Origin: Escherichia phage pinkbiff
Strand: one strand, 5' to 3'
Sequence record: MN850603.1
DNA length: 64,000 nucleotides
This document shows positions 3,687-53,986 of the stretch, in pieces (position 1 is the stretch's first letter; the number at the start of each line of letters is the position of its first letter). Made by a program: the position numbers and the translations under genes. Under the pieces are notes generated by a model. That model was not told the DNA's origin. It made no database searches and was given only the letters and a program-made list of their open reading frames with translations.

Positions 3687-3735
3687 AAAAAAAAAAAAAA
3701 AAAAAAGGCTCCCGTAAAAAGGAGCCTTAAATTTT
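3687..3735. terminator. bidirectional rho-independent terminator preceded by an A21 homopolymer
   Basis: A21 run 3687-3707, then hairpin GGCTCCcgtaaaaaGGAGCC, then T-rich tract; lies between convergent thyA (+) and 3734..4105 (-). Confidence 0.6.
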
Positions 3736-4105
3736 ATTTTTCAGTATTCTTTGTGTTCTTTTCAGTAATAGCTTGGAGGGCTGATACTGATTGAGCCAGA
3801 TTATTCACACTGTCAGAGAATTTATCAAGAGTTTTGGTAAGTTTTGCGTTTTCACCCTTAACGTTCTCTAACTGAACTTTCTGGTTTTCCATCCCTAGCT
3901 GAATCAGCCTCATGTCAGACTGTAAATCACGAATAGCTGAGTAATTAGATTTGCTATAATTATCTAGCTGCTGTAATTTTGTTGTGACAGACACCTCTTG
4001 CTTACCACTTGAAACTTGCATCGTGGTATACATCCCAATAACACTAAAAATACCAACAACAATTGCACCAATATTATTTTTAAAAGCTTCCTCTATCCAC
4101 TTCAT
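3734..4105 (-). CDS. membrane-anchored coiled-coil protein
   Basis: N-terminal hydrophobic segment IGAIVVGIFSVIGMYTTM followed by heptad-like Q/L/N-rich region. Confidence 0.45.
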   Translation of the reverse strand: MKWIEEAFKNNIGAIVVGIFSVIGMYTTMQVSSGKQEVSVTTKLQQLDNYSKSNYSAIRDLQSDMRLIQLGMENQKVQLENVKGENAKLTKTLDKFSDSVNNLAQSVSALQAITEKNTKNTEK

Positions 4106-4379: not shown

Positions 4380-6713
4380 TTAAGCAGTCCTCACCCAAGC
4401 CATTAACTTATAGAACTGGTTAGTAACACTAAATGCTGAACCAGAACCTGTACCACCAGTGTTACCACTAACTGTATGACTGTGAGCACCAATACCAACA
4501 CTGTGAGCATGGTTACCAGCAGAAGCGGCAGTACCACTTACAGAGTGGGTGTGAGCACCGTTAGCATCGGTGTAACCCGGCCCTGTACCAATGTAACCAC
4601 CACCACCACCGGAATAGTGCTGTGAGTTCTGACCAATCCACGAAATAGAGTGGCTGTGGTTACCAGCAGATGAAGTAGAACCACTTACAGAGTGAGTGTG
4701 AGCACCAGTCGTGTTAGTGTTTTTTGTTCCGTAGTCAAACGATGAGGTAGTCGCAGAAAAACTGTGCGTGTGTGAAGGTAAGTTACCAACAGATAACGTT
4801 ACAGAATCTGAACCACCAGTTGTAGCAACATCTGAACCATTTGCTGCTGCAATTCTAATAGTCCTACCAACACCATTATTCAGATACGTCCAAGTTAGAC
4901 CAGGCAGTGCTGTATTAGGGTTAACATTACTGTTAAACCACGTCACAATACCTACTGGATAGATTTTGTTAAGGTCTGTAGAGTCACTTACTGCCTGTGC
5001 AATCTTCTGGTCAGTCTCTGCTTTAGTGTATGCACCAATAGCTGAAGGAGTTGGCTTCTGTGCAGTTGTGTACACCATAGCCCAACTTTTCTCAAAGCCA
5101 TCACCATCTCTTGATGTCCTATACCACATACCACCATTCGCCCATTTAAATCTTAGCTGCGCAGACGGTGTAGATGACTCAGACCCCTGATATAACTGAA
5201 GTAAAAGATTTGATGATGTAGCTCCAGTCTTGACATTATACAGCCCTGTCTTAGCATCCCAAGCAATAGCAGCATCATTATCACCTTCACCAGTTTTTCC
5301 TGCATACATGTATCTGGCGTTTGATGCTGAACCGGTATAGTACCTTTTATCTAGGTTAGTCCAGTCGGATGGTTGAACCTGCCCAGTGATTGTTACATTC
5401 TTATTAAACTGGATATAGTTCTCTCTAAGAGACAGTTCAGTACCTAACACCATCTCCCTGATAGTAAAGTTTCCTGAAGCATTAGTACCCATAAACCACT
5501 TTTTAGCACCATCAGAAGTATAACCTTGCAAGAACAAACCACCAGTATCATTTACCCCTTGAAGCCTAATACCCTCTCCATCAGCCTTAATAATCTGACC
5601 TTGAGAAAAAGTATTCTTAGCATTAATTTTTGCAAGAGTGCTTAATGTTGCTGCCGGAATATATCTAGAGTCAATGTTAGTCCAATCTGAAGGTTGAACT
5701 TGACCAGTTACAGTTAGTGTTTTATTGATATTAACACTTGTCCCTACAGTAATCTTGCCACTAGTTTTGTAGTTTTCTAGAGCTACGTTATCACCTTCGT
5801 TACTATTACCAATGTACCATCTGTTGACACCTGTGCTATCAATTGCTTTAATGTACAATGGTTGTGCAGCATTGGCATTCTGTAGCCTAATTGCTTCACC
5901 ATCTTTTTTGAAAACACTCAGTTGTTTGAATGTATTAGTGCCGTTAAAAGTGTTATTACCAGCCAACTGTGCAAATCTTTGATTAGCCAATGTTTGGGTA
6001 AAGTATCTATCATCTAGGTTAGACCAGTCTGAAGGTTTAACCTGACCAGTGATATTTAAATTCTTATTAGAATTAATACCTGCTGAATCCAATGTCAATG
6101 TCGTGCCAGAGGCTTCATTTGATAATCCAAGAACATTTGAAGTATTAAATCCAACATACCATTTATTAGTTCCAGATGGGTCTTGACCTCTAACATAGAG
6201 AGAAGGGCTATCAGTTGCACTTCTTAACAACAGTGCTTGACCATCTGCTACAATTGTCTGCCTAGACTTAAAAGTATTTAGTACTTCTAATCTAGCATAT
6301 CTAGCATCATTCTCAGCATTAGTTCTCATCCCAAGTTCATTAGGGCTTGGCTTATTAAGAGTATGATAAACAGTTGCAGACCTTGAAGCATCTGCAATAG
6401 TTAGTTTAAGACCATTTGCATTAATTTTAAAAGTCTTTAAAACATCCCCCATAGTAATCTCAGAAGAGCCTGTAGGGTCAAAGACTGCCTTACCACCATA
6501 AAGTAACTTAACAATCCCTAAGTCACCCGTCATAGTGCTACCAGCAATCTGGACAAACCTTTCTAGTTTAAAAGATGCTAAGAAGTCTTGATAGGTCATT
6601 CGACGGTCTTCATCACCCAGCATTTCAGGTCTCTTTTTAACCCTGACATGGAGGAGGTCATCTGAACGAATTGTATCAATTGAGTTTAATTCACTCAACT
6701 TGTAATCTGCCAT
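4380..6713 (-). CDS. tail fibre protein (long, repeat-containing)
   Basis: 777 aa; repeated internal modules (TGQVxPSDWxNLDxRY x3); C-terminal His-rich H-x-H-S repeats and ...WVRTA end shared with adjacent fibre gene; position distal to baseplate genes. Confidence 0.7.
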
Positions 6714-36071: not shown

Positions 36072-36443
36072 ATGAAAGCTAAGAGTGCAAAAGACTTTTA
36101 TTGCTTCCTACAATCCTATATCAATTCCGTGCAAAATGGTGAAAGGTACAACCTTAATGATGTTATCCCAACACCTTTGACATGGAGACTCAGCAAATGG
36201 CCTGAAGAAGATATTACACCAACAAGCGAACAACGCACCTACAAACCTGAAATCAATATTCCAGACTCTGAGAATCTACTATATCCAATGTTCCATATTG
36301 TTGGTCTTGGAAGATTCCTTATGGATATCCAGTATGTAATTGGTAAGGGTTATAAGGTTAAAGGTATTGTTGTTGGTGATGTATCTCCACATCACAAAGG
36401 TTATTTTAGACTAAACGCACATTTAGAGGCTAAAAAGAAATGA
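36072..36443 (+). CDS. hypothetical protein (paralog of N-terminal domain of 36440..37825)
   Basis: 123 aa; aligns by eye with first about 120 aa of next ORF (KDFYCFLQSYINSVQNGERY vs YPDFKEFVKGFIANVKAGKRY; FLMDIQYVIGKG vs FFMDLQYAIINGK). Confidence 0.5.
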   Translation: MKAKSAKDFYCFLQSYINSVQNGERYNLNDVIPTPLTWRLSKWPEEDITPTSEQRTYKPEINIPDSENLLYPMFHIVGLGRFLMDIQYVIGKGYKVKGIVVGDVSPHHKGYFRLNAHLEAKKK

Positions 36444-37825
36444 TTAAAGCAAAGACTTACCCAGACTTCAAAGAGTTTGTGAAGGGCTTCATTGCAAACG
36501 TAAAAGCTGGTAAGAGATATGATTTTAGAGCATATCAAGAGGCTATTTTACCGCTTACCTATAGTTCGTATTGGCCTGAAGCTGATATTGCAGAAGTTGA
36601 GGAGTTTGACTACAAACCAGACTACAAAGTTCCATTTAGTGATGAGTTGCTTTACAGCATTGGTGCTCAAATGAGAACTTCTGACTTCTTCATGGACTTA
36701 CAATATGCAATTATCAATGGTAAAGACGTTGACACAATTTATTGTGAATGGCTGGCAAGAGTTAAACCATTCTCAATGTTGAATGCTAAGTTGAAGGATG
36801 CTATCAAGCCACCAGCAATCACTCAGCAACCAACCAATCAAACAGTAAATGAAGGTGACACACTTACCCTAAGTGTTATTGCAACTAATGCCACTGGATA
36901 TCAATGGAAAAAGGGTGGTGAGGATATCACTAGCGCCACATCTGCAACCTACACAAAACAGTCTGTAGCACCTTCTGATGCAGGTTCATACACTTGTGTT
37001 GTATCTGGAGAGGCTGGAACAAGTGTTACCTCAGATGCGGCAACAGTTACTGTCAACGCACTGCCTGTGATTACACAGCAACCTTCTAGCCAGACCATCA
37101 ATGAGGGTGGGAACATTAACTTGGAAGTGACTGCAACAGGTGCAACAGGTTATCAGTGGAAGAAAGATGGCTCTGACATCCCTTCAGCTACAGAGGCTAC
37201 CTATAGCAAGTCTGGTGCGCTGCCAGCAGATGCAGGTTCATACACTTGCGTTGTAACAGGTGCAGGTGGTTCTGTTACTTCTAGCCCTGCAACTGTCACG
37301 GTAAATGCTTTGCCAGTTATTACCAAGCAGCCAACCAATCAGGTAGTTAATGAGGGTAGCTCTTTGACACTGAGTGTTGAGGCGACAGGTGCGGAAGGTT
37401 ATCAGTGGAAAAAGGACGATGTGAACATCCCTAGTGCAACTGGTGCGACTTACACGAAAGCTAACGCAGTTCCTGACGATGCTGGTTCATATACCTGTGT
37501 AGTTACTGGTGCTGGTGGTACAACAGTCACATCTAATGCTGCAACAGTTACTGTGAATGCACTTCCGGTAATCACTCAACAGCCAACCAATCAAGAAACC
37601 AATGAAGGTGAGACCTTAACGCTGAATGTTGTAGCAACAGGTGCAACAGGTTACCAGTGGAAGAAAGGTGAGGAAGACATCCTCGATGCAACTACTGCAA
37701 CTTACACCAAAGAAGGTGCAACCGCTGCTGATTCAGGAAGCTACACCTGTGTAGTTACTGGTGCAGGTGGCTCTGTAACATCTAATGCAGCAACAGTTAC
37801 TGTTAACCCAGCAGGGGAGGCATAA
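36440..37825 (+). CDS. Ig-like repeat protein
   Basis: 461 aa; four tandem ~90-aa repeats (ITQQPTNQxVNEG..L.L.V.ATGATGYQWKK....I..AT.ATY.K......DAGSYTCVVTGAGG) resembling Ig-like/Big-type domains; stop overlaps start of endolysin. Confidence 0.6.
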   Translation: MIKAKTYPDFKEFVKGFIANVKAGKRYDFRAYQEAILPLTYSSYWPEADIAEVEEFDYKPDYKVPFSDELLYSIGAQMRTSDFFMDLQYAIINGKDVDTIYCEWLARVKPFSMLNAKLKDAIKPPAITQQPTNQTVNEGDTLTLSVIATNATGYQWKKGGEDITSATSATYTKQSVAPSDAGSYTCVVSGEAGTSVTSDAATVTVNALPVITQQPSSQTINEGGNINLEVTATGATGYQWKKDGSDIPSATEATYSKSGALPADAGSYTCVVTGAGGSVTSSPATVTVNALPVITKQPTNQVVNEGSSLTLSVEATGAEGYQWKKDDVNIPSATGATYTKANAVPDDAGSYTCVVTGAGGTTVTSNAATVTVNALPVITQQPTNQETNEGETLTLNVVATGATGYQWKKGEEDILDATTATYTKEGATAADSGSYTCVVTGAGGSVTSNAATVTVNPAGEA

Positions 37826-38289
37826 TGCAACTCTCAAGAAAAGGCTTAGATGCTATTAAGTTCTTTGAAGGTCTGAAGTTAGAGGCTTACGAAGACTCTG
37901 CCGGAATCCCAACAATCGGGTATGGTACAATCCGTATTGACGGAAAACCTGTTAAGATGGGTATGAAAATTACTGCTGAACAAGCTGAACAGTATCTTCT
38001 CGCAGATGTTGAAAAGTTCGTTGCAGCAGTGAACAAATCCATCAAGGTTCCAACTTCCCAGAATGAGTTTGACGCACTTGTAAGTGAAACATACAACATT
38101 GGCATCACAGCTATGCAGGACTCTACATTTATTAAGCGCCACAACGATGGCAATAAGGTAGGTTGTGCAGAAGCTATGCAATGGTGGAACAAGGTTACAG
38201 TCAAAGGTAAGAAGGTCACTTCAAACGGTCTTAAAAACAGACGTAGAATGGAAGCTGACATTTATCTTGACAGTGTATATCCAAAGTAA
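37825..38289 (+). CDS. endolysin, phage lysozyme (GH24-like)
   Basis: 154 aa; N-terminal FFEGLKLEAYEDSAGIPTIGYGT matches catalytic-Glu region of T4-lysozyme-type muramidases. Confidence 0.7.
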   Translation: MQLSRKGLDAIKFFEGLKLEAYEDSAGIPTIGYGTIRIDGKPVKMGMKITAEQAEQYLLADVEKFVAAVNKSIKVPTSQNEFDALVSETYNIGITAMQDSTFIKRHNDGNKVGCAEAMQWWNKVTVKGKKVTSNGLKNRRRMEADIYLDSVYPK

Positions 38290-40421: not shown

Positions 40422-40640
40422 ATGAAAAAGTTAACTACAGTTGAAGATTACTACAAACTTTCCCTGTTAGAACAGTATCGCAGAAACCAGAATATCAGAA
40501 AATGCTATGGTAAACACGCTGAGGGTGATTTTTACCATTGCTATGATGCAGATTTAAAAGGCGTAACACCTAGAGGGAAAGTCCTGCAAAGACTTGTTAA
40601 CCTTGAGTGGAACAAACGATTGAGAGGGGTTGGAAAATGA
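40422..40640 (+). CDS. hypothetical small protein
   Basis: 72 aa; ORF track. Confidence 0.35.
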   Translation: MKKLTTVEDYYKLSLLEQYRRNQNIRKCYGKHAEGDFYHCYDADLKGVTPRGKVLQRLVNLEWNKRLRGVGK

Positions 40641-41140
40641 TTTACGAAGAAAGATATAAGATAGATTACCAGAAGACTGGTCATCATGTCTCCCTAAGAG
40701 TAACCAAACCAAATGGAGACACCGGTATCATAGCACATTTTGGTGGTGATTATTGGTATGGTACTGGTTGCTTTGAAGGCTACAGTCAAGAATACTTGAA
40801 AGCTTTCTACAGAGACTTTACAAACGACTACAATAGGGTTGTTGACGAAAAGAATAAGTGCATTAAGCATGAACACCATGCCAGAGGCTGCCTGAGTATT
40901 ATTATGGTACTGGCATTCTTCTTAGCAACGTTACTGGCAGTATCAGCAATCAGCTACATAGCTCAAGATTTAACCATTACACAGATTACTGCAAAGCTAC
41001 ATGATATCTGGTACTTGTATGCTGTCCCTTTAGCTGGTATCATCATCTCACTAATAAGATTCAGAGTTCATAAGAAACGACTTAAGGATTCTGAGGTTAA
41101 ACTTGAAGAGGTAAGTAAAGAATGCAACCTACAATTATAG
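40607..41140 (+). CDS. membrane protein
   Basis: 177 aa; two hydrophobic segments (LSIIMVLAFFLATLLAVSAISYI and LYAVPLAGIIISLI). Confidence 0.45.
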   Translation: MEQTIERGWKMIYEERYKIDYQKTGHHVSLRVTKPNGDTGIIAHFGGDYWYGTGCFEGYSQEYLKAFYRDFTNDYNRVVDEKNKCIKHEHHARGCLSIIMVLAFFLATLLAVSAISYIAQDLTITQITAKLHDIWYLYAVPLAGIIISLIRFRVHKKRLKDSEVKLEEVSKECNLQL

Positions 41141-47809: not shown

Positions 47810-48154
47810 TTAAAAACCAAAATCAAGAGAAATTTTTCGTTTGCTCAATTCTTGAACAATTACAGTGTAATAGTCTTTCAAATCACTGACATTTAAAGCA
47901 TTTATCAGAGAATTATAATCATCAACTAACTGAAAATTATCTTTGAAGATGTCACTTATCTGATAGGTTTTCGCTTTATATCTGAAGCTCATCTCTAGCC
48001 GCTTTATTTGCTCATCACTGAGGCGCCCTAGAAAGCTTTCTACAAGGCTATTACTAACCTGCTGTGTGATTGCCTTATTTGCTAGATTATAGGCTTTATA
48101 TGCCTTATATAGCGCGAAAATGGCAATGATTGCAGTGATACCAGTCATTAACAT
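47810..48154 (-). CDS. hypothetical membrane protein
   Basis: 114 aa; N-terminal hydrophobic MLMTGITAIIAIFALY; no cassette directly upstream. Confidence 0.45.
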   Translation of the reverse strand: MLMTGITAIIAIFALYKAYKAYNLANKAITQQVSNSLVESFLGRLSDEQIKRLEMSFRYKAKTYQISDIFKDNFQLVDDYNSLINALNVSDLKDYYTVIVQELSKRKISLDFGF

Positions 48155-49949: not shown

Positions 49950-50735
49950 TTAGTTCTTTGCGTCTAAGAAGGTAAGCTCTGGTGAAGAGAAGATTAACTC
50001 GATATCCTCATCAGTTCTCGCATAGATATAAGTATCTGCATCACTGCCAAATGTTACTGCAATCCTGTGATTGCTCTTCGACAGGTGGGTAACTAGAGCG
50101 TTACTTAGAGACATCTTTTCAACCGGAGGGTTACTTTGATGTATCTTACCTTTTCTTCGTCTGAAAAGGGTAACTGCATTATCCGTGAACACTGCTACAC
50201 CTGCAAAGTATTCTGGTTCACAGTAGTTCTTCCAACCTGAGAGTAACTTGTGGTACATCTCTCCTTCATAGACATACAGATAAACATCTACACTCTTCAT
50301 GACCTGATTGATGATAACTGTGACAGCTTGAGGGTCGAGTCCACCGATACCTGCACCAATCATAGGTAGACCGACTTTCTTCAACTGGTTAACTTCACAG
50401 TATCTGTTAAGCTGTTTCAAAGATGACTCTAAAGCACTGTATCGTGCATCTTTACCAGTCTTAAGCTGAGTGTAAAGGTTAGCTATACGGCCTTGTTTTA
50501 AACGTGCTACAGAGGAATTACCCAGTAAATTTTCACAGGGTTTGTGTCCTATACCACCTGCATATAGATAAACTTCTGTATCGGTCTCATATGCTTTTGG
50601 GTAAAGTTTAGAAATCTTGTCAGCGATACCTGCACCCATTAAATTCATACAGTTGCAACCGTGACCGATGATGTCAAACTTACCTTTATCAAATGCGGAA
50701 AAGATATCACCGTTGATAATTTTTACAATACCCAT
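49950..50735 (-). CDS. macro-domain protein (TARG1/OARD1/DarG-like ADP-ribose hydrolase fold) with unknown C-terminal domain
   Basis: 261 aa; N-terminal GDIFSAFDKGKFDIIGHGCNCMNLMGAGIADKISKLYP matches the GDLF..HC....MGAGIA signature of TARG1/DarG-type macrodomains. Confidence 0.55.
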   Translation of the reverse strand: MGIVKIINGDIFSAFDKGKFDIIGHGCNCMNLMGAGIADKISKLYPKAYETDTEVYLYAGGIGHKPCENLLGNSSVARLKQGRIANLYTQLKTGKDARYSALESSLKQLNRYCEVNQLKKVGLPMIGAGIGGLDPQAVTVIINQVMKSVDVYLYVYEGEMYHKLLSGWKNYCEPEYFAGVAVFTDNAVTLFRRRKGKIHQSNPPVEKMSLSNALVTHLSKSNHRIAVTFGSDADTYIYARTDEDIELIFSSPELTFLDAKN

Positions 50736-50736
50736 A

Positions 50737-50937
50737 CTAATAATGCTCCCAACGTTGCATGTCTTCGGATGGTTTTACACGGTTACCCTCATGGTCTACA
50801 TAACCTGCACCACAACCTTCACAGATAACTGGCATAGCTGAACCAGCTTCAAACTCTTCTTTGGTGAAGAGACCTTTCAAGTCCCCTGTATCAACACCAA
50901 AATGTTCTATTGCACACTTCTTGCAGAAATCAGCCAT
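50737..50937 (-). CDS. small zinc-ribbon protein
   Basis: ORF opens at 51027; ATG at 50937 (MADFCKKCAIEHFG) has AAGAGG RBS; CKKC ... CEGC pairs. Confidence 0.45.
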   Translation of the reverse strand: MADFCKKCAIEHFGVDTGDLKGLFTKEEFEAGSAMPVICEGCGAGYVDHEGNRVKPSEDMQRWEHY

Positions 50938-51157
50938 GAATAATTGCCTCTTGAATGATGATACCTTTACCACAACGGCTTTTAAAGTCTTCCAATGGTT
51001 GGGAGATGAAGCCACGCAAGCAATCACTAAATACTAAGTTTTTCCTGTAGGCTATCACATCGTTTGCTGTAAACGGGATGACTTCATTTCTTCCAATGAA
51101 TACTGCTGACCGGATGAGTTTCCGTGTCTTTTTATCTCTGGCTAGAATTACTCTCAT
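50930..51157 (-). CDS. hypothetical small protein
   Basis: 75 aa; overlapping arrangement with neighbours. Confidence 0.35.
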   Translation of the reverse strand: MRVILARDKKTRKLIRSAVFIGRNEVIPFTANDVIAYRKNLVFSDCLRGFISQPLEDFKSRCGKGIIIQEAIIHG

Positions 51158-51458
51158 AATTTACCTTCTCAGTTAGCTCATATAAATCAACATGCTCAAT
51201 ACTATCAATGTTGATATCAATCTTTTTGAAGCGTTCTATCACTTCGTTGTCAGTCATCCATATCAGACACCAATGATTCTGAATGGATTCTTCAAGAAGG
51301 TCAACACAATCTTTAAAAGTTTTTGTATCACTTCTTGTGCCTACTACTGCGATTGTTCCATATAGCCACTTACCATTGCCATAAGTTACTTGTGCTACGC
51401 CAACTTCTTTATCTTTCTCGTAGTAAACGGCTACAAAGTCTCTTCCATTAATCTGCAT
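51132..51458 (-). CDS. hypothetical protein
   Basis: 108 aa; ORF track. Confidence 0.45.
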   Translation of the reverse strand: MQINGRDFVAVYYEKDKEVGVAQVTYGNGKWLYGTIAVVGTRSDTKTFKDCVDLLEESIQNHWCLIWMTDNEVIERFKKIDINIDSIEHVDLYELTEKVNYESNSSQR

Positions 51459-51460
51459 AG

Positions 51461-51730
51461 TTACTTCCTCGTTTTGAGAACTGCTAAGATTTCTTTAGAG
51501 TCTGGTAAGAACCATGTGTAGTGATTCTCTTTGATTTCTGGATGAGTGTCAACCTTTATTTTGCAGTCTTTACCGACATGCTTAAGCTGTGCTGTGACAC
51601 CTTGCATAAAGATATGACACATCACATTATCCATAATGGTTGGTATGAAGTCAATTCGCATATAAGTTTCTTTTGGTCGTGGTAACAGTAAGTAACCTTC
51701 TACATAGAAAGTATCTTCATTCTCTGTCAT
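51461..51730 (-). CDS. hypothetical protein
   Basis: 89 aa; ORF track. Confidence 0.45.
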   Translation of the reverse strand: MTENEDTFYVEGYLLLPRPKETYMRIDFIPTIMDNVMCHIFMQGVTAQLKHVGKDCKIKVDTHPEIKENHYTWFLPDSKEILAVLKTRK

Positions 51731-51996
51731 TGCTGCTTATTCCCTAATAAAATCATGTCAATAAGGTTGTTAGCTTTGATTGTGCACTGGTAAAAGCCGT
51801 CACGATAGAACTCAAGGGCTGCTGCTACATCACTGCCTGTGTTGCCTTTGATGATATACCGTGATTCTTCTTGAGTGTACTTATCACTCTCACTTACTTG
51901 GGAGTTTTTGAATGTACTGCTCACTTTGTTCGTTGAACACCCTGACATAGTTATCAGTAACACAAACATTATAAAACTCTGGCTTAGTTTTTTCAT
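51727..51996 (-). CDS. lipoprotein (o-spanin candidate)
   Basis: 89 aa; signal peptide ending in lipobox-like ITMSGC; gene begins inside 51890..52237 in another frame. Confidence 0.4.
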   Translation of the reverse strand: MKKLSQSFIMFVLLITMSGCSTNKVSSTFKNSQVSESDKYTQEESRYIIKGNTGSDVAAALEFYRDGFYQCTIKANNLIDMILLGNKQQ

Positions 51997-52237
51997 ATGT
52001 TAGTACCTCTTTTGTATGCTTATTCTTAGCAAGCACATCCTTCAAATCATTTTTGTAATTGGTGCTCAATGTTACTAATCCTTCCTGATAAGCATCTTTA
52101 GCAACACTTATGAGCTTTTGATTGTTTAGCTCAGTTTCAGCAACTTGATAGTCTCTGTAAGAGTATCCTCCCCAGACACCTGCCCCAACTAAGAAAACAA
52201 TTATGAAAGTAGCTTGACAGAACTCTTTAAATGTCAT
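51890..52237 (-). CDS. membrane protein with N-terminal TM segment (i-spanin candidate)
   Basis: 115 aa; N-terminal FIIVFLVGAGVWGGYSY then charged/helical periplasmic-type domain; overlapped by lipoprotein gene. Confidence 0.4.
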   Translation of the reverse strand: MTFKEFCQATFIIVFLVGAGVWGGYSYRDYQVAETELNNQKLISVAKDAYQEGLVTLSTNYKNDLKDVLAKNKHTKEVLTYEKTKPEFYNVCVTDNYVRVFNEQSEQYIQKLPSK

Positions 52238-52253
52238 TTAACAATCTCCTGAA

Positions 52254-52278
52254 ATGAAAAAGGCTCCCGAAGGAGCCT
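52254..52278 (-). terminator. rho-independent terminator
   Basis: minus-strand hairpin GGCTCCttcgGGAGCC followed by U5. Confidence 0.55.
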
Positions 52279-52289
52279 GTATCTTAACC

Positions 52290-52754
52290 TTAACCGAGGA
52301 CTTTAGCAAGGACATTTGCAGCCATCGAAGAAGCTTTTGCAGCAGCAGCTACCCCAGCTTTGATAGCGTTATCCTTGATAGCAGATACCGTTGCAGCATC
52401 AGTAAAGAGATAAGTAGTTGTTTTAGAACCACTTGTAAAGGAAAGCATGAGAGCAGTTTCCAGATTGAAAGAGCGATACGGAGCACCTTCTTTAACGATA
52501 CCTTCAGCACCTAACTCTGAGGCCATACCCATATCATAGATAGTCATCAGGTTTTCTTTGTGTGCTGTCGTTGAGCCAGAACCTTTTACGTGTTTCTTAA
52601 CATTCAAAAGAGCACGATACTCCCGGATGTTACCGTCTGCTTTTACATTGACAGCACGGAAGATTTTACCCTCAAAGTTGCTCTTGATAATGTTACGAAC
52701 TACTTCAGATTTGTTTGCTGTAACGTCCAGTGCTACCGTGATAATGTTGTTCAT
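52290..52754 (-). CDS. hypothetical protein
   Basis: 154 aa; ORF track; Ala-rich C-terminus. Confidence 0.45.
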   Translation of the reverse strand: MNNIITVALDVTANKSEVVRNIIKSNFEGKIFRAVNVKADGNIREYRALLNVKKHVKGSGSTTAHKENLMTIYDMGMASELGAEGIVKEGAPYRSFNLETALMLSFTSGSKTTTYLFTDAATVSAIKDNAIKAGVAAAAKASSMAANVLAKVLG

Positions 52755-52764
52755 AAGTTTTCTC

Positions 52765-53460
52765 TCAATGTTTAACTAACATGGTTTTGATGTGTGGAAG
52801 GATTCTATTCACTTTCTGCACATTCTTCTCTGTATCTTCTATAAAACATACTATATTAAAGTAAGGCAGAATGCAAGACTGAATCATCCTCACTTTCAAA
52901 CTTTCTGCACTTATAGAGTTAGTTCCAAAACCACGCATAAAAAGCATATAATCATGCTCTGTGTTATGCCTTAAAAACATCTCAGTAGGTATTCTCTGAG
53001 ATTCGCCTCTCGCTGTCAAGAGTCCAACGGCAGCATGATTAGCAATTGCATCAATGATATTGAAAACATACGTTGGTTTTGCTCTTACAGAGTCAAGAAG
53101 ATTAGTGTACTGTGAAAATGAACCATCAGTCAATTCCGTTGAACAATCTTCGTGATTAAAATTTGTAAGAACTCCATCAATATCTGCTAAGATAAGATTA
53201 CCTTTCTCTACAAGGTCTTTGTTGACTATGACTAAACTATCACGTTTTACACCTATGGATTGTCCAGTCTCTTTGTCCACAACGTTCACAATTGGTTCTG
53301 ATGTGTGGAACTCTTCAAGTGAACATACAACTTCTCTTGCGGTGTCTTCAAAATCCCTGCACTGTTCTGGAGTCCATACACAGGAATCAAGACCTAACTC
53401 ATGAGGGTGTAAGTCATAAGCATGGCACAATACTTCATCAAACTTTCTTAATTTTTTCAT
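52765..53460 (-). CDS. HAD-superfamily hydrolase-like protein (putative nucleotidase/phosphatase)
   Basis: 231 aa; motif-I-like LADIDGVLT (DxDGV). Confidence 0.45.
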   Translation of the reverse strand: MKKLRKFDEVLCHAYDLHPHELGLDSCVWTPEQCRDFEDTAREVVCSLEEFHTSEPIVNVVDKETGQSIGVKRDSLVIVNKDLVEKGNLILADIDGVLTNFNHEDCSTELTDGSFSQYTNLLDSVRAKPTYVFNIIDAIANHAAVGLLTARGESQRIPTEMFLRHNTEHDYMLFMRGFGTNSISAESLKVRMIQSCILPYFNIVCFIEDTEKNVQKVNRILPHIKTMLVKH

Positions 53461-53986
53461 GATTTACCTTAGAAATGTTTGTTGCAAATTCACATTGAGC
53501 GATGACTTTCATATTGTTATAGACATCTTGAGAGTATTTCTTAGCTTTAGGAATTTTGTATGAATACCCAGCATTGTATGATGCTAAAACTTTTTGTAAA
53601 GTCTTCTTTGACTTTGGTTGACCGTGTACCTTAGTCCAAAATTCAAGCTCTTTGTGTGTTTCCTTTGCAGCATAGTCAAAATCTTTTAAGAGTTTCTTTT
53701 TAGCCACATTAGGACTGATTTTGTTACGCTTTACAACAGTCTTCAAGTGATTCTGGAAGATACCATAATCATGTGTCTTTTTATTCTCTACCTTCAGACC
53801 TAACCCTGACTCTTGTAAGGCTATAGCAGCTAGAGTGATACCCCAACCTTTACCCATGTTATTCTCACCATACTGGTAAGCTTTTAACATGTTTACTTTT
53901 TGGCTAATTGATAGCTCTGGGCAGTCAACTGCATAAGATAAGTGTGCTGTAAACATTAAGCACAAACCTAGAATCAATTTCTTCAT
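53438..53986 (-). CDS. secreted lytic transglycosylase-like protein (SLT/lysozyme-like domain)
   Basis: 182 aa; signal peptide MKKLILGLCLMFTAHLSYA; AAIALQESGLG ... YGIFQ resembles the SLT catalytic-Glu region. Confidence 0.5.
   Translation of the reverse strand: MKKLILGLCLMFTAHLSYAVDCPELSISQKVNMLKAYQYGENNMGKGWGITLAAIALQESGLGLKVENKKTHDYGIFQNHLKTVVKRNKISPNVAKKKLLKDFDYAAKETHKELEFWTKVHGQPKSKKTLQKVLASYNAGYSYKIPKAKKYSQDVYNNMKVIAQCEFATNISKVNHEKIKKV

What the first reader, a model, noticed from the sequence alone, without database searches (positions are those of the whole stretch)
51727..52237. Overlapped membrane-protein/lipoprotein gene pair resembling an i-spanin/o-spanin unit
51890..52237 encodes a protein with one N-terminal TM helix. 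51727..51996 starts inside it in another frame and encodes a small lipoprotein (signal peptide plus lipobox-like MSGC). This overlapped architecture is the hallmark of Rz/Rz1-type spanins, although the pair lies far from the endolysin (37825..38289).
Basis: partly seen in the sequence, partly recalled or inferred. Interest (0 to 1): 0.4.

Follow-up and report, generated by a model that had tools for sequence, protein, structure and literature searches.

The report
Felix O1-type overlapped spanin gene pair
This is the known pair of overlapping lysis genes (inner-membrane spanin plus outer-membrane lipoprotein spanin) of Felix O1-like phages, predicted to break the host's outer membrane at the end of infection; it is real but ordinary and already catalogued.

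Summary
On the minus strand, 52237..51890 encodes a 115-aa protein with one N-terminal transmembrane helix. In the +1 frame, 51996..51727 encodes an 89-aa lipoprotein precursor (signal peptide, lipobox ITMSG|C20, Ser at +2). The two genes share 107 nt.

The window is a Felixounavirus, 96-97% identical to Felix O1 and Escherichia phage finno. Many GenBank records annotate this pair as i-spanin/o-spanin. The curated spanin catalogue of Kongari et al. 2018 lists Felix O1 with an i-spanin identical to the window's, in the "overlapped" class with the same 107-nt overlap.

Both frames are under selection:
- Synonymous changes dominate in the single-coding parts.
- The overlap diverges about half as fast as its flanks.
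- The lipobox Cys and one periplasmic Cys per protein are invariant in relatives down to about 25-35% identity.
- Two distant relatives sit directly after a muralytic-enzyme gene, one of them in an annotated holin-endolysin-holin cassette.

The distance from the endolysin (GH24 lysozyme, 37825..38289) is normal for Felix O1-like phages, whose lysis genes are scattered.

The pair does not belong to the lambda Rz/Rz1 or T4 PseT.3/PseT.2 sequence families. I found no experimental test of its function. Verdict: supported, already known, low interest.

The parts
51890..52237 (-). i-spanin gene (115 aa): N-terminal TMD at about residues 6-24 and an 85-88-aa periplasmic domain with a single periplasmic Cys92
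   Evidence: ORF and translation. phrog_1152 Rz-like spanin E=1.1e-41. Identical to the Felix01 i-spanin in SpaninDB. Annotated i-spanin in finno, Moogle and SUSP1. C92 and the E82/K83/F88/N90/Y97/N102 motif are invariant in 7 divergent homologues.
51727..51996 (-). o-spanin gene (89-aa precursor, 70-aa mature lipoprotein) in the +1 frame: lipobox ITMSG|C20, Ser+2, second Cys at 71, no proline
   Evidence: ORF and lipobox pattern. phrog_4180 E=2e-50, weak phrog_456 Rz-like spanin E=3e-4. Sub-threshold NCBIfam hits only to N-terminal lipoprotein signal regions. C20 and C71 are invariant in 7 homologues. Synonymous exceed nonsynonymous changes in the o-only part (33:15 against Moogle).
51890..51996 (-). 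107-nt dual-coding overlap: i-spanin codons 81-115 and stop, o-spanin codons 1-36
   Evidence: Nucleotide divergence against Moogle and SUSP1 is 0.11-0.12 in the overlap and 0.22-0.29 in the flanking single-coding parts. No substitution is synonymous in both frames. SpaninDB records the same 107-nt overlap for Felix01, FO1a and Moogle.
52238..52250 (-). Shine-Dalgarno region (AGGAG) of the i-spanin
   Evidence: Sequence read directly. SpaninDB records the same SD string, tttttcatttcAGGAGattgttaa, for Felix01.
52256..52278 (-). Intrinsic-terminator-like hairpin (GGCTCC-TTCG-GGAGCC plus a U-tract) ending about 20 nt before the i-spanin start codon. It probably ends the upstream transcript and limits or shapes spanin expression.
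   Evidence: Terminator scan. The layout recurs with different stem sequences in phiEa21-4 and Bas93. The phiEa21-4 record annotates a terminator at the equivalent place. Any role in spanin expression is inferred, not shown.

Best explanation
The two genes encode the two-component spanin of a Felix O1-like myophage.

Shown by sequence:
- The 115-aa product is a type II inner-membrane protein, with an N-terminal TMD and about 85 residues in the periplasm.
- The 89-aa product carries a signal peptidase II signal. [quoted passage not shown]
- The genes overlap by 107 nt in the +1 frame, and both frames are under purifying selection.

Inferred from the lambda Rz/Rz1 paradigm (Berry et al. and Kongari et al. 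2018, as summarised in PMC6139136):
- The two periplasmic domains bind each other and form a complex that spans the periplasm through the peptidoglycan mesh.
- The single conserved periplasmic cysteine in each subunit (i-C92, o-C71) forms Dsb-dependent intermolecular disulfides.
- The complexes accumulate harmlessly until the GH24 endolysin (37825..38289), released by a still unidentified holin, degrades the wall.
- Once freed, the complexes collapse and fuse the inner and outer membranes, which completes lysis.

The genes sit among T4-like early and auxiliary genes (rIIB, SLT-like protein, polynucleotide kinase, macro-domain protein), directly behind a terminator-like hairpin. Expression is therefore probably by read-through or from a weak upstream promoter rather than from a dedicated lysis cassette.
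For: - Anatomy.
- Family hit: phrog_1152 Rz-like spanin, E=1e-41.
- Prior curation: the identical protein pair is recorded as an overlapped spanin in SpaninDB, and many GenBank records annotate i-/o-spanin.
- Selection on both frames and slowed divergence in the overlap.
- Conserved architecture: the TMD protein plus a +1-frame lipoprotein recurs in homologues at 25-35% identity. This holds for Kolesnikvirus phiEa21-4, Sashavirus Solent, the unclassified 68.9-kb phage Bas93 and Klebsiella phage phi_270. The lipobox Cys, o-C71 and i-C92 are invariant in all of them.
- Guilt by association: in Solent the pair follows holin/antiholin, an M15 peptidase endolysin and a second holin. In phi_270 it follows a GH108 muramidase.
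- No rival candidate: no other lipobox-bearing gene is present in the 64-kb window.
Against: - I found no experimental test of this family: no complementation, lipidation or deletion data.
- There is no sequence similarity to the experimentally studied spanins: no Pfam hit at all, so no match to any Pfam spanin model, and T4 PseT.3/PseT.2 match only in the TMD and lipobox.
- SpaninDB reports zero Pepcoil coiled-coil segments for the Felix01 i-spanin.
- The single-sequence AlphaFold model is all-helical but unreliable (pLDDT 47).
- The mature o-spanin has no proline, unlike Rz1.
- The genes are not in a lysis cassette, and no holin is recognisable in the window.
Confidence: 0.9

Rival explanations
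1. The pair is a membrane protein plus lipoprotein with a different job, such as superinfection exclusion or receptor blocking (as with T5 Llp or the Cor lipoproteins). The resemblance to spanins would then be only architectural.
For: The genes lie among early or auxiliary genes (rIIB, Pnk, macro domain) rather than with the endolysin. They share no sequence homology with experimentally proven spanins. No coiled coil is predicted.
Against: Distant homologues of both proteins sit in lysis cassettes, directly after the endolysin. The strict co-occurrence and overlap of the two genes is kept across unrelated phage types. The window holds no alternative spanin candidate. T4's proven spanins are likewise far from gene e and next to pseT.
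Confidence: 0.06
2. Only the 115-aa gene is real. On this view the 89-aa +1-frame ORF is a chance open frame, as implied by records that leave it 'hypothetical', truncated or unannotated.
For: The Felix O1 RefSeq record calls it a hypothetical protein. finno annotates only a 73-aa version that lacks the signal peptide. Bas93 and phi_270 do not annotate the full ORF. One paper reports 'only the i-spanin' in phage DR094.
Against: The 163 nt downstream of the i-spanin stop have no other ORF, and there synonymous exceed nonsynonymous changes in the o frame (33:15 and 20:15). The full ORF with its signal peptide and lipobox Cys is conserved at 30-35% identity across four other phage lineages. Only 2 of 568 ORFs in the window match the lipobox pattern. 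The full-length finno ORF is intact and identical to the window's, so its short annotation is a start-codon error.
Confidence: 0.02

Closest known systems
Felix O1 / FO1a / UAB_Phi87 / Moogle / Mushroom overlapped spanins as catalogued in SpaninDB (Kongari et al. 2018, BMC Bioinformatics 19:326)
   Same: The i-spanin sequence is identical to the Felix01 entry, and the o-spanin is 98.9% identical. Gene order, +1 frame, 107-nt overlap, SD string and protein lengths (115 and 89 aa) are all the same.
   Different: Nothing of substance. The window is simply another Felixounavirus isolate.
Lambda Rz/Rz1 (prototype two-component spanin)
   Same: A type II inner-membrane protein plus an outer-membrane lipoprotein encoded in the +1 frame of the same DNA. 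Both subunits have periplasmic cysteines. The presumed role is outer-membrane disruption by membrane fusion after murein degradation.
   Different: - Architecture: overlapped here, not fully embedded.
- Sequence: no detectable similarity, with no Pfam hit for either protein.
- Mature o-spanin: 70 aa, proline-free and partly structured here. Rz1 is 40 aa, proline-rich and unstructured.
- i-spanin: the periplasmic domain is shorter (about 85 aa; lambda Rz's is roughly 130 aa from memory) and has no Pepcoil coiled coil.
- Location: not in a holin-endolysin cassette.
T4 PseT.3/PseT.2 spanins
   Same: The lysis genes are scattered around the genome. The spanin pair lies beside the polynucleotide kinase gene among early or auxiliary genes. 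Sizes are similar (117 and 99 aa), and the o-spanin is not proline-rich (PMC6139136).
   Different: T4's genes are 'separated' (4-nt overlap), not overlapped by 107 nt. The order relative to pnk is reversed. There is no sequence similarity beyond the TMD and lipobox.
Sashavirus (9NA/Solent-type) overlapped spanins
   Same: These are true, distant homologues of both subunits (about 26-32% identity). They share the overlap architecture, the lipobox Cys, the o-spanin C-terminal Y-x-C motif and the i-spanin F-x-N-x-C...Y...N motif.
   Different: They lie in a canonical lysis cassette (holin/antiholin, endolysin, holin, then spanins). The i-spanin has a longer C-terminal tail, and no terminator hairpin lies upstream.

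Membership tests
Two-component spanin (functional class, criteria of Summer 2007 / Kongari 2018) | i-spanin: a small protein with one N-terminal TMD, N-in/C-out, and the bulk in the periplasm | tested here: met
   One hydrophobic segment at residues 6-24 (Kyte-Doolittle 1.75), with 85-88 residues C-terminal to it. SpaninDB records the same periplasmic domain.
Two-component spanin (functional class, criteria of Summer 2007 / Kongari 2018) | o-spanin: a signal peptidase II signal with a lipobox Cys and no inner-membrane retention residue at +2 | tested here: met
   MKKLSQSFIMFVLLITMSG|C20-S21 passes a PS51257-style pattern written from memory, and +2 is Ser. The Cys is invariant in 7 homologues. 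LipoP and SignalP themselves were not available.
Two-component spanin (functional class, criteria of Summer 2007 / Kongari 2018) | The o-spanin gene lies immediately downstream of, overlapping or embedded in the i-spanin gene (+1 frame for overlapped and embedded pairs) | tested here: met
   The o start is at nt 242 of the i gene, in the +1 frame, with a 107-nt overlap. The arrangement is the same in six other phages.
Two-component spanin (functional class, criteria of Summer 2007 / Kongari 2018) | At least one periplasmic cysteine available for intermolecular disulfides (507 of 528 known systems) | tested here: met
   i-C92 and o-C71 are both invariant across the alignments. Disulfide formation itself was not tested.
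Two-component spanin (functional class, criteria of Summer 2007 / Kongari 2018) | Helical or coiled-coil periplasmic domain of the i-spanin (typical but not universal; more than 120 catalogued i-spanins have no coiled-coil prediction) | tested here: inconclusive
   The single-sequence AlphaFold2 model is all-helical but has pLDDT 47. SpaninDB gives JPred 66% helix but 0 Pepcoil coiled coils for Felix01, and 1 for Moogle.
Two-component spanin (functional class, criteria of Summer 2007 / Kongari 2018) | Required for outer-membrane disruption, or complements lambda RzRz1 | not testable with these tools
   I found no experimental report for this family. This needs wet-lab complementation or deletion.
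Lambda Rz / Rz1 sequence families (Pfam) | A significant match to the Pfam models built on lambda Rz and Rz1 (from memory PF03245 and PF06085) | tested here: not met
   Neither protein has any Pfam family at E<=0.01.
T4 PseT.3 / PseT.2 spanin families | Detectable sequence or profile similarity across the periplasmic domains | tested here: not met
   BLASTP finds no alignment for the i-spanin. For the o-spanin only the signal peptide and lipobox align. hhalign probabilities are 0.9% and 25%, over 18 and 11 columns in the TMD and lipobox.
PHROG 1152 (Rz-like spanin) / Felix O1 spanin family | A full-length profile match | tested here: met
   phrog_1152 E=1.1e-41 over residues 1-115. The sequence is 100% identical to the i-spanin of finno and of Felix O1.

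The most novel reading that the evidence does not exclude
This spanin family might work somewhat differently from lambda Rz/Rz1. It has a short i-spanin with no predicted coiled coil and a proline-free, partly structured o-spanin. Exactly one invariant periplasmic Cys sits in each subunit, which could form a heterotypic i-o disulfide rather than homotypic ones. Expression may also be set by read-through of a conserved terminator hairpin placed about 20 nt before the start codon in three divergent phage lineages. None of this is excluded by the evidence, and none of it is shown.
Probability: 0.15. Interest if true: 0.3.

Novelty: already known. Interest (0 to 1): 0.08.

Why it matters
It matters little beyond correct annotation. 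The pair completes the lysis gene set of a Felixounavirus, a group used for Salmonella and E. coli typing and biocontrol.

Two practical points follow:
- The o-spanin is still mis-annotated or missing in a number of public records: 'hypothetical' in the Felix O1 RefSeq, N-terminally truncated in finno, and absent in Bas93 and phi_270.
- The holin of this phage group remains unidentified, so the lysis pathway is only partly mapped.

Tried and rejected
- **Pfam and NCBIfam on both proteins.** There are no family-level hits, only sub-threshold matches of the o-spanin N-terminus to lipoprotein signal regions. So this is not a member of the Rz/Rz1 Pfam families.
- **Comparison with T4 PseT.3/PseT.2, by BLASTP and hhalign.** No homology. 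The shared neighbourhood with polynucleotide kinase is positional only.
- **Single-sequence AlphaFold2 of the i-spanin.** pLDDT is 47, too poor to use or to send to a fold search.
- **Search for a promoter between the hairpin and the start codon.** There is no room for one. A weak TTGCTA-17-TAAGAT element just upstream of the hairpin keeps its position in Moogle and SUSP1, but not in phiEa21-4 or Bas93. This is left unresolved.
- **Search for a holin among small TMD proteins of the window.** All candidates fall in PHROGs of unknown function.
- **Summer et al. 2007.** The paper (J Mol Biol 373:1098) is not held in the library.
- **Chance-ORF and exclusion-lipoprotein readings.** Both were considered and rejected on the conservation and synteny evidence.

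Full report
**Observation**

Listing ORFs on both strands of 50500..53500 and reading the DNA confirm two overlapping ORFs on the minus strand.
- The first, 52237..51890, encodes 115 aa (MTFKEFCQATFIIVFLVGAGVWGGYSYRDYQ...).
- The second, 51996..51727, encodes 89 aa (MKKLSQSFIMFVLLITMSGCSTNK...).

A script gave the details:
- The first protein has a single hydrophobic segment at residues 6-24.
- The second ORF starts at nt 242 of the first, so it is in the +1 frame, and shares 107 nt with it.
- Its N-terminus satisfies a PROSITE-style lipoprotein pattern that I wrote from memory: a KK n-region, an uncharged core, and M-S-G-C with Cys at position 20. Ser at +2 predicts outer-membrane sorting.
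- Both starts have Shine-Dalgarno sequences, AGGAG and AGAGG.
- Only 2 of 568 Met-started ORFs of at least 40 aa in the window match the lipobox pattern, so the match is not a composition artefact.

**Identity of the window**

Megablast of 51000..53500 finds 257 phage records. The best are Escherichia phage finno (97.2%), Felix O1 (96.4%) and other Felixounavirus genomes.
- In finno the two ORFs are annotated i-spanin and o-spanin.
- In the Felix O1 RefSeq they are 'Rz-like spanin' (ORF6) and 'hypothetical protein' (ORF7).
- The i-ORF matches phrog_1152 'Rz-like spanin' at E=1e-41.
- The o-ORF matches phrog_4180 (unknown function) at E=2e-50, and weakly a second spanin PHROG.

**Prior knowledge**

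Kongari et al. 2018 (PMC6139136) list Felix01/FO1a/UAB_phi87 among overlapped two-component spanins. Their supplementary SpaninDB tables give the following for Felix01:
- an i-spanin sequence identical to the window's, with the same SD string;
- coordinates 5330-5678 and 5571-5841, which is a 107-nt overlap, and an 89-aa o-spanin;
- JPred 66% helix for the i-spanin periplasmic domain, and 20% helix plus 16% strand for the mature o-spanin;
- no Pepcoil coiled coil.

Genome announcements for Moogle and Meda state that in Felix O1-like phages the endolysin, the spanins and, where found, a holin are scattered rather than in a cassette. The UAB_Phi87 paper and the Meda announcement note that no holin has been identified. 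The feature is therefore already known. I found no experimental test of this particular family.

**Independent evidence that both genes are real and linked**

tblastn finds homologues of the o-spanin in 342 phage records and of the i-spanin in 401. I fetched six divergent loci: Moogle, phiSUSP1, phiEa21-4, Solent, Bas93 and Klebsiella phage phi_270.

In every one, a TMD protein is followed by a +1-frame ORF with a signal peptide and lipobox (SGC, ASC or SAC). This includes Bas93 and phi_270, where the full ORF is not annotated.

The alignments show these invariant positions:
- In the o-spanin, the lipobox Cys20 and a second Cys71 in a Y-x-C motif.
- In the i-spanin, Cys92 within the motif E-K...F-x-N-x-C...Y...N.

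These most-conserved i-spanin residues lie inside the overlap, opposite the o-spanin signal peptide and lipobox. For example, YEKT is read as MKKL in the other frame, and VFNE overlies the codons for C-S-T. The two sets of constraints are therefore physically coupled.

At nucleotide level:
- Divergence from Moogle and SUSP1 is 0.26/0.23 in the i-only part and 0.29/0.22 in the o-only part. It is only 0.11/0.12 in the overlap.
- Synonymous changes outnumber nonsynonymous ones in each single-coding part (42:21 and 33:15 against Moogle).
- No overlap substitution is silent in both frames.

This is the pattern expected for two translated, selected frames.

**Functional context**

In Solent the homologous pair directly follows holin/antiholin, an M15 peptidase endolysin and a second holin (record annotation; Pfam check). 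In phi_270 it follows a GH108 muramidase and a small ORF. This supports a lysis role for the family by association.

In the window the pair sits among T4-like auxiliary genes. Upstream on the same strand are:
- rIIB;
- a signal-peptide protein with a sub-threshold SLT transglycosylase match (53986..53438);
- polynucleotide kinase (53460..52765);
- a 154-aa protein of unknown function.

Downstream are small unknown ORFs and a macro-domain protein.

T4's own spanins, pseT.3 and pseT.2, also lie beside pseT. They show no sequence similarity to this pair beyond the TMD and lipobox. Pfam reports no family for either protein. So the pair works like Rz/Rz1 but is not a member of those sequence families. 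That is normal for spanins, which Kongari et al. split into 143 i-spanin and 125 o-spanin families.

**Mechanism**

Shown:
- topology signals;
- the lipoprotein signal;
- the overlap;
- selection on both frames;
- conserved cysteines;
- linkage to lysis genes in relatives.

Inferred from the lambda paradigm:
- The i-spanin in the inner membrane and the lipidated o-spanin in the outer membrane bind through their periplasmic domains.
- They are covalently stabilised by Dsb-dependent disulfides through i-C92 and/or o-C71.
- They are held in check by intact murein.
- After endolysin action they fuse the two membranes.

Not established:
- the coiled-coil content (the single-sequence AlphaFold2 model has pLDDT 47, and Pepcoil finds none);
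- the disulfide pattern;
- the timing of expression.

**Expression**

A GC-rich hairpin with a UUCG loop and a U-tract (52278..52256, minus strand) ends about 20 nt before the i-spanin ATG.
- The same layout occurs with the same stem in Moogle and SUSP1.
- It occurs with different stem sequences in phiEa21-4, whose record annotates a terminator there, and in Bas93.
- It is absent in Solent and phi_270, the two relatives where the pair directly follows a muralytic-enzyme gene.

A weak sigma-70-like element ends 4 nt before the hairpin in the window, Moogle and SUSP1 only. Whether the spanins are made by terminator read-through or from this element is unresolved.

**Verdict**

The distance from the endolysin is typical for this phage group. 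The feature is already catalogued, and interest is low.

Noticed in passing
window 52256..52278 (-); L003:~920-945, L004:~920-945, L005:946-965, L007:~925-950: A terminator-like hairpin (UUCG or UACG tetraloop plus a U-tract) sits about 20 nt upstream of the i-spanin start. It recurs in Felixounavirus, Mooglevirus and Suspvirus, and with different stem sequences in Kolesnikvirus and Bas93. It is absent where the pair directly follows a muralytic-enzyme gene (Solent, phi_270). This suggests spanin expression by read-through, or a 5' stabilising hairpin.
   Followed up: partly
L001:2225-2446 (finno_42); L007:1201-1461; L008:1201-1449; L002:2523-2792: The o-spanin is inconsistently annotated in public records. 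finno starts it at Met17, which removes the signal peptide, although the full 89-aa ORF is intact. The Felix O1 RefSeq calls it hypothetical. Bas93 annotates only a shorter ORF, and phi_270 annotates none. A published statement that phage DR094 lacks an o-spanin may be an annotation miss of the same kind; I did not check the DR094 sequence.
   Followed up: partly
window 53438..53986 (-): A 182-aa protein with a cleavable-looking signal peptide (MKKLILGLCLMFTAHLSYA) and a sub-threshold SLT lytic transglycosylase match (19.7 bits against a cut-off of 21.3). It is annotated 'putative lysin' in relatives, and the Felix O1 record describes it by a T4 ORF in the vs-regB interval. It lies 1.2 kb upstream of the spanins on the same strand, so a second possible muralytic enzyme is much closer to the spanins than the GH24 endolysin.
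   Followed up: partly
window 52765..53460 (-) and L009:6003-7782 (T4 pseT, pseT.1, pseT.2, pseT.3): The spanin pair lies two genes from a polynucleotide kinase gene, as T4's spanins pseT.3/pseT.2 lie next to pseT. The gene order is reversed and the spanins are not homologous. This may be coincidence, or a remnant of a shared auxiliary-gene neighbourhood.
   Followed up: partly
window 3734..4105 (-), 47810..48154 (-), 40637..41140 (+), 28970..29527 (-): Small conserved proteins with one or two predicted TMDs, all in PHROGs of unknown function. No holin is recognisable in the window, in line with published remarks that the Felix O1 holin is unidentified. These would be the candidates to test.
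   Followed up: partly
window 36440..37825 (+): A 461-aa protein with four tandem Ig-like repeats (…PVITQQPTNQ…GYQWKK…AGSYTCVV…) ends exactly where the endolysin ATG begins. It looks like a Hoc-like capsid or tail decoration protein, translationally adjacent to the lysozyme.
   Followed up: no
window 51461..51730 (-): An 89-aa ORF (phrog_4391, unknown function) starts 4 nt before the o-spanin stop (ATGA overlap), suggesting translational coupling. It is present after the spanins in Felixounavirus, Moogle and SUSP1, but not in phiEa21-4, where the macro-domain 'phosphatase' gene follows directly.
   Followed up: no
window 49950..50735 (-): A 261-aa protein with an N-terminal Macro domain (PF01661, E=8e-8), described in the phiEa21-4 record as similar to phage RB49 Tk.4. 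It may be an ADP-ribose-processing enzyme.
   Followed up: no
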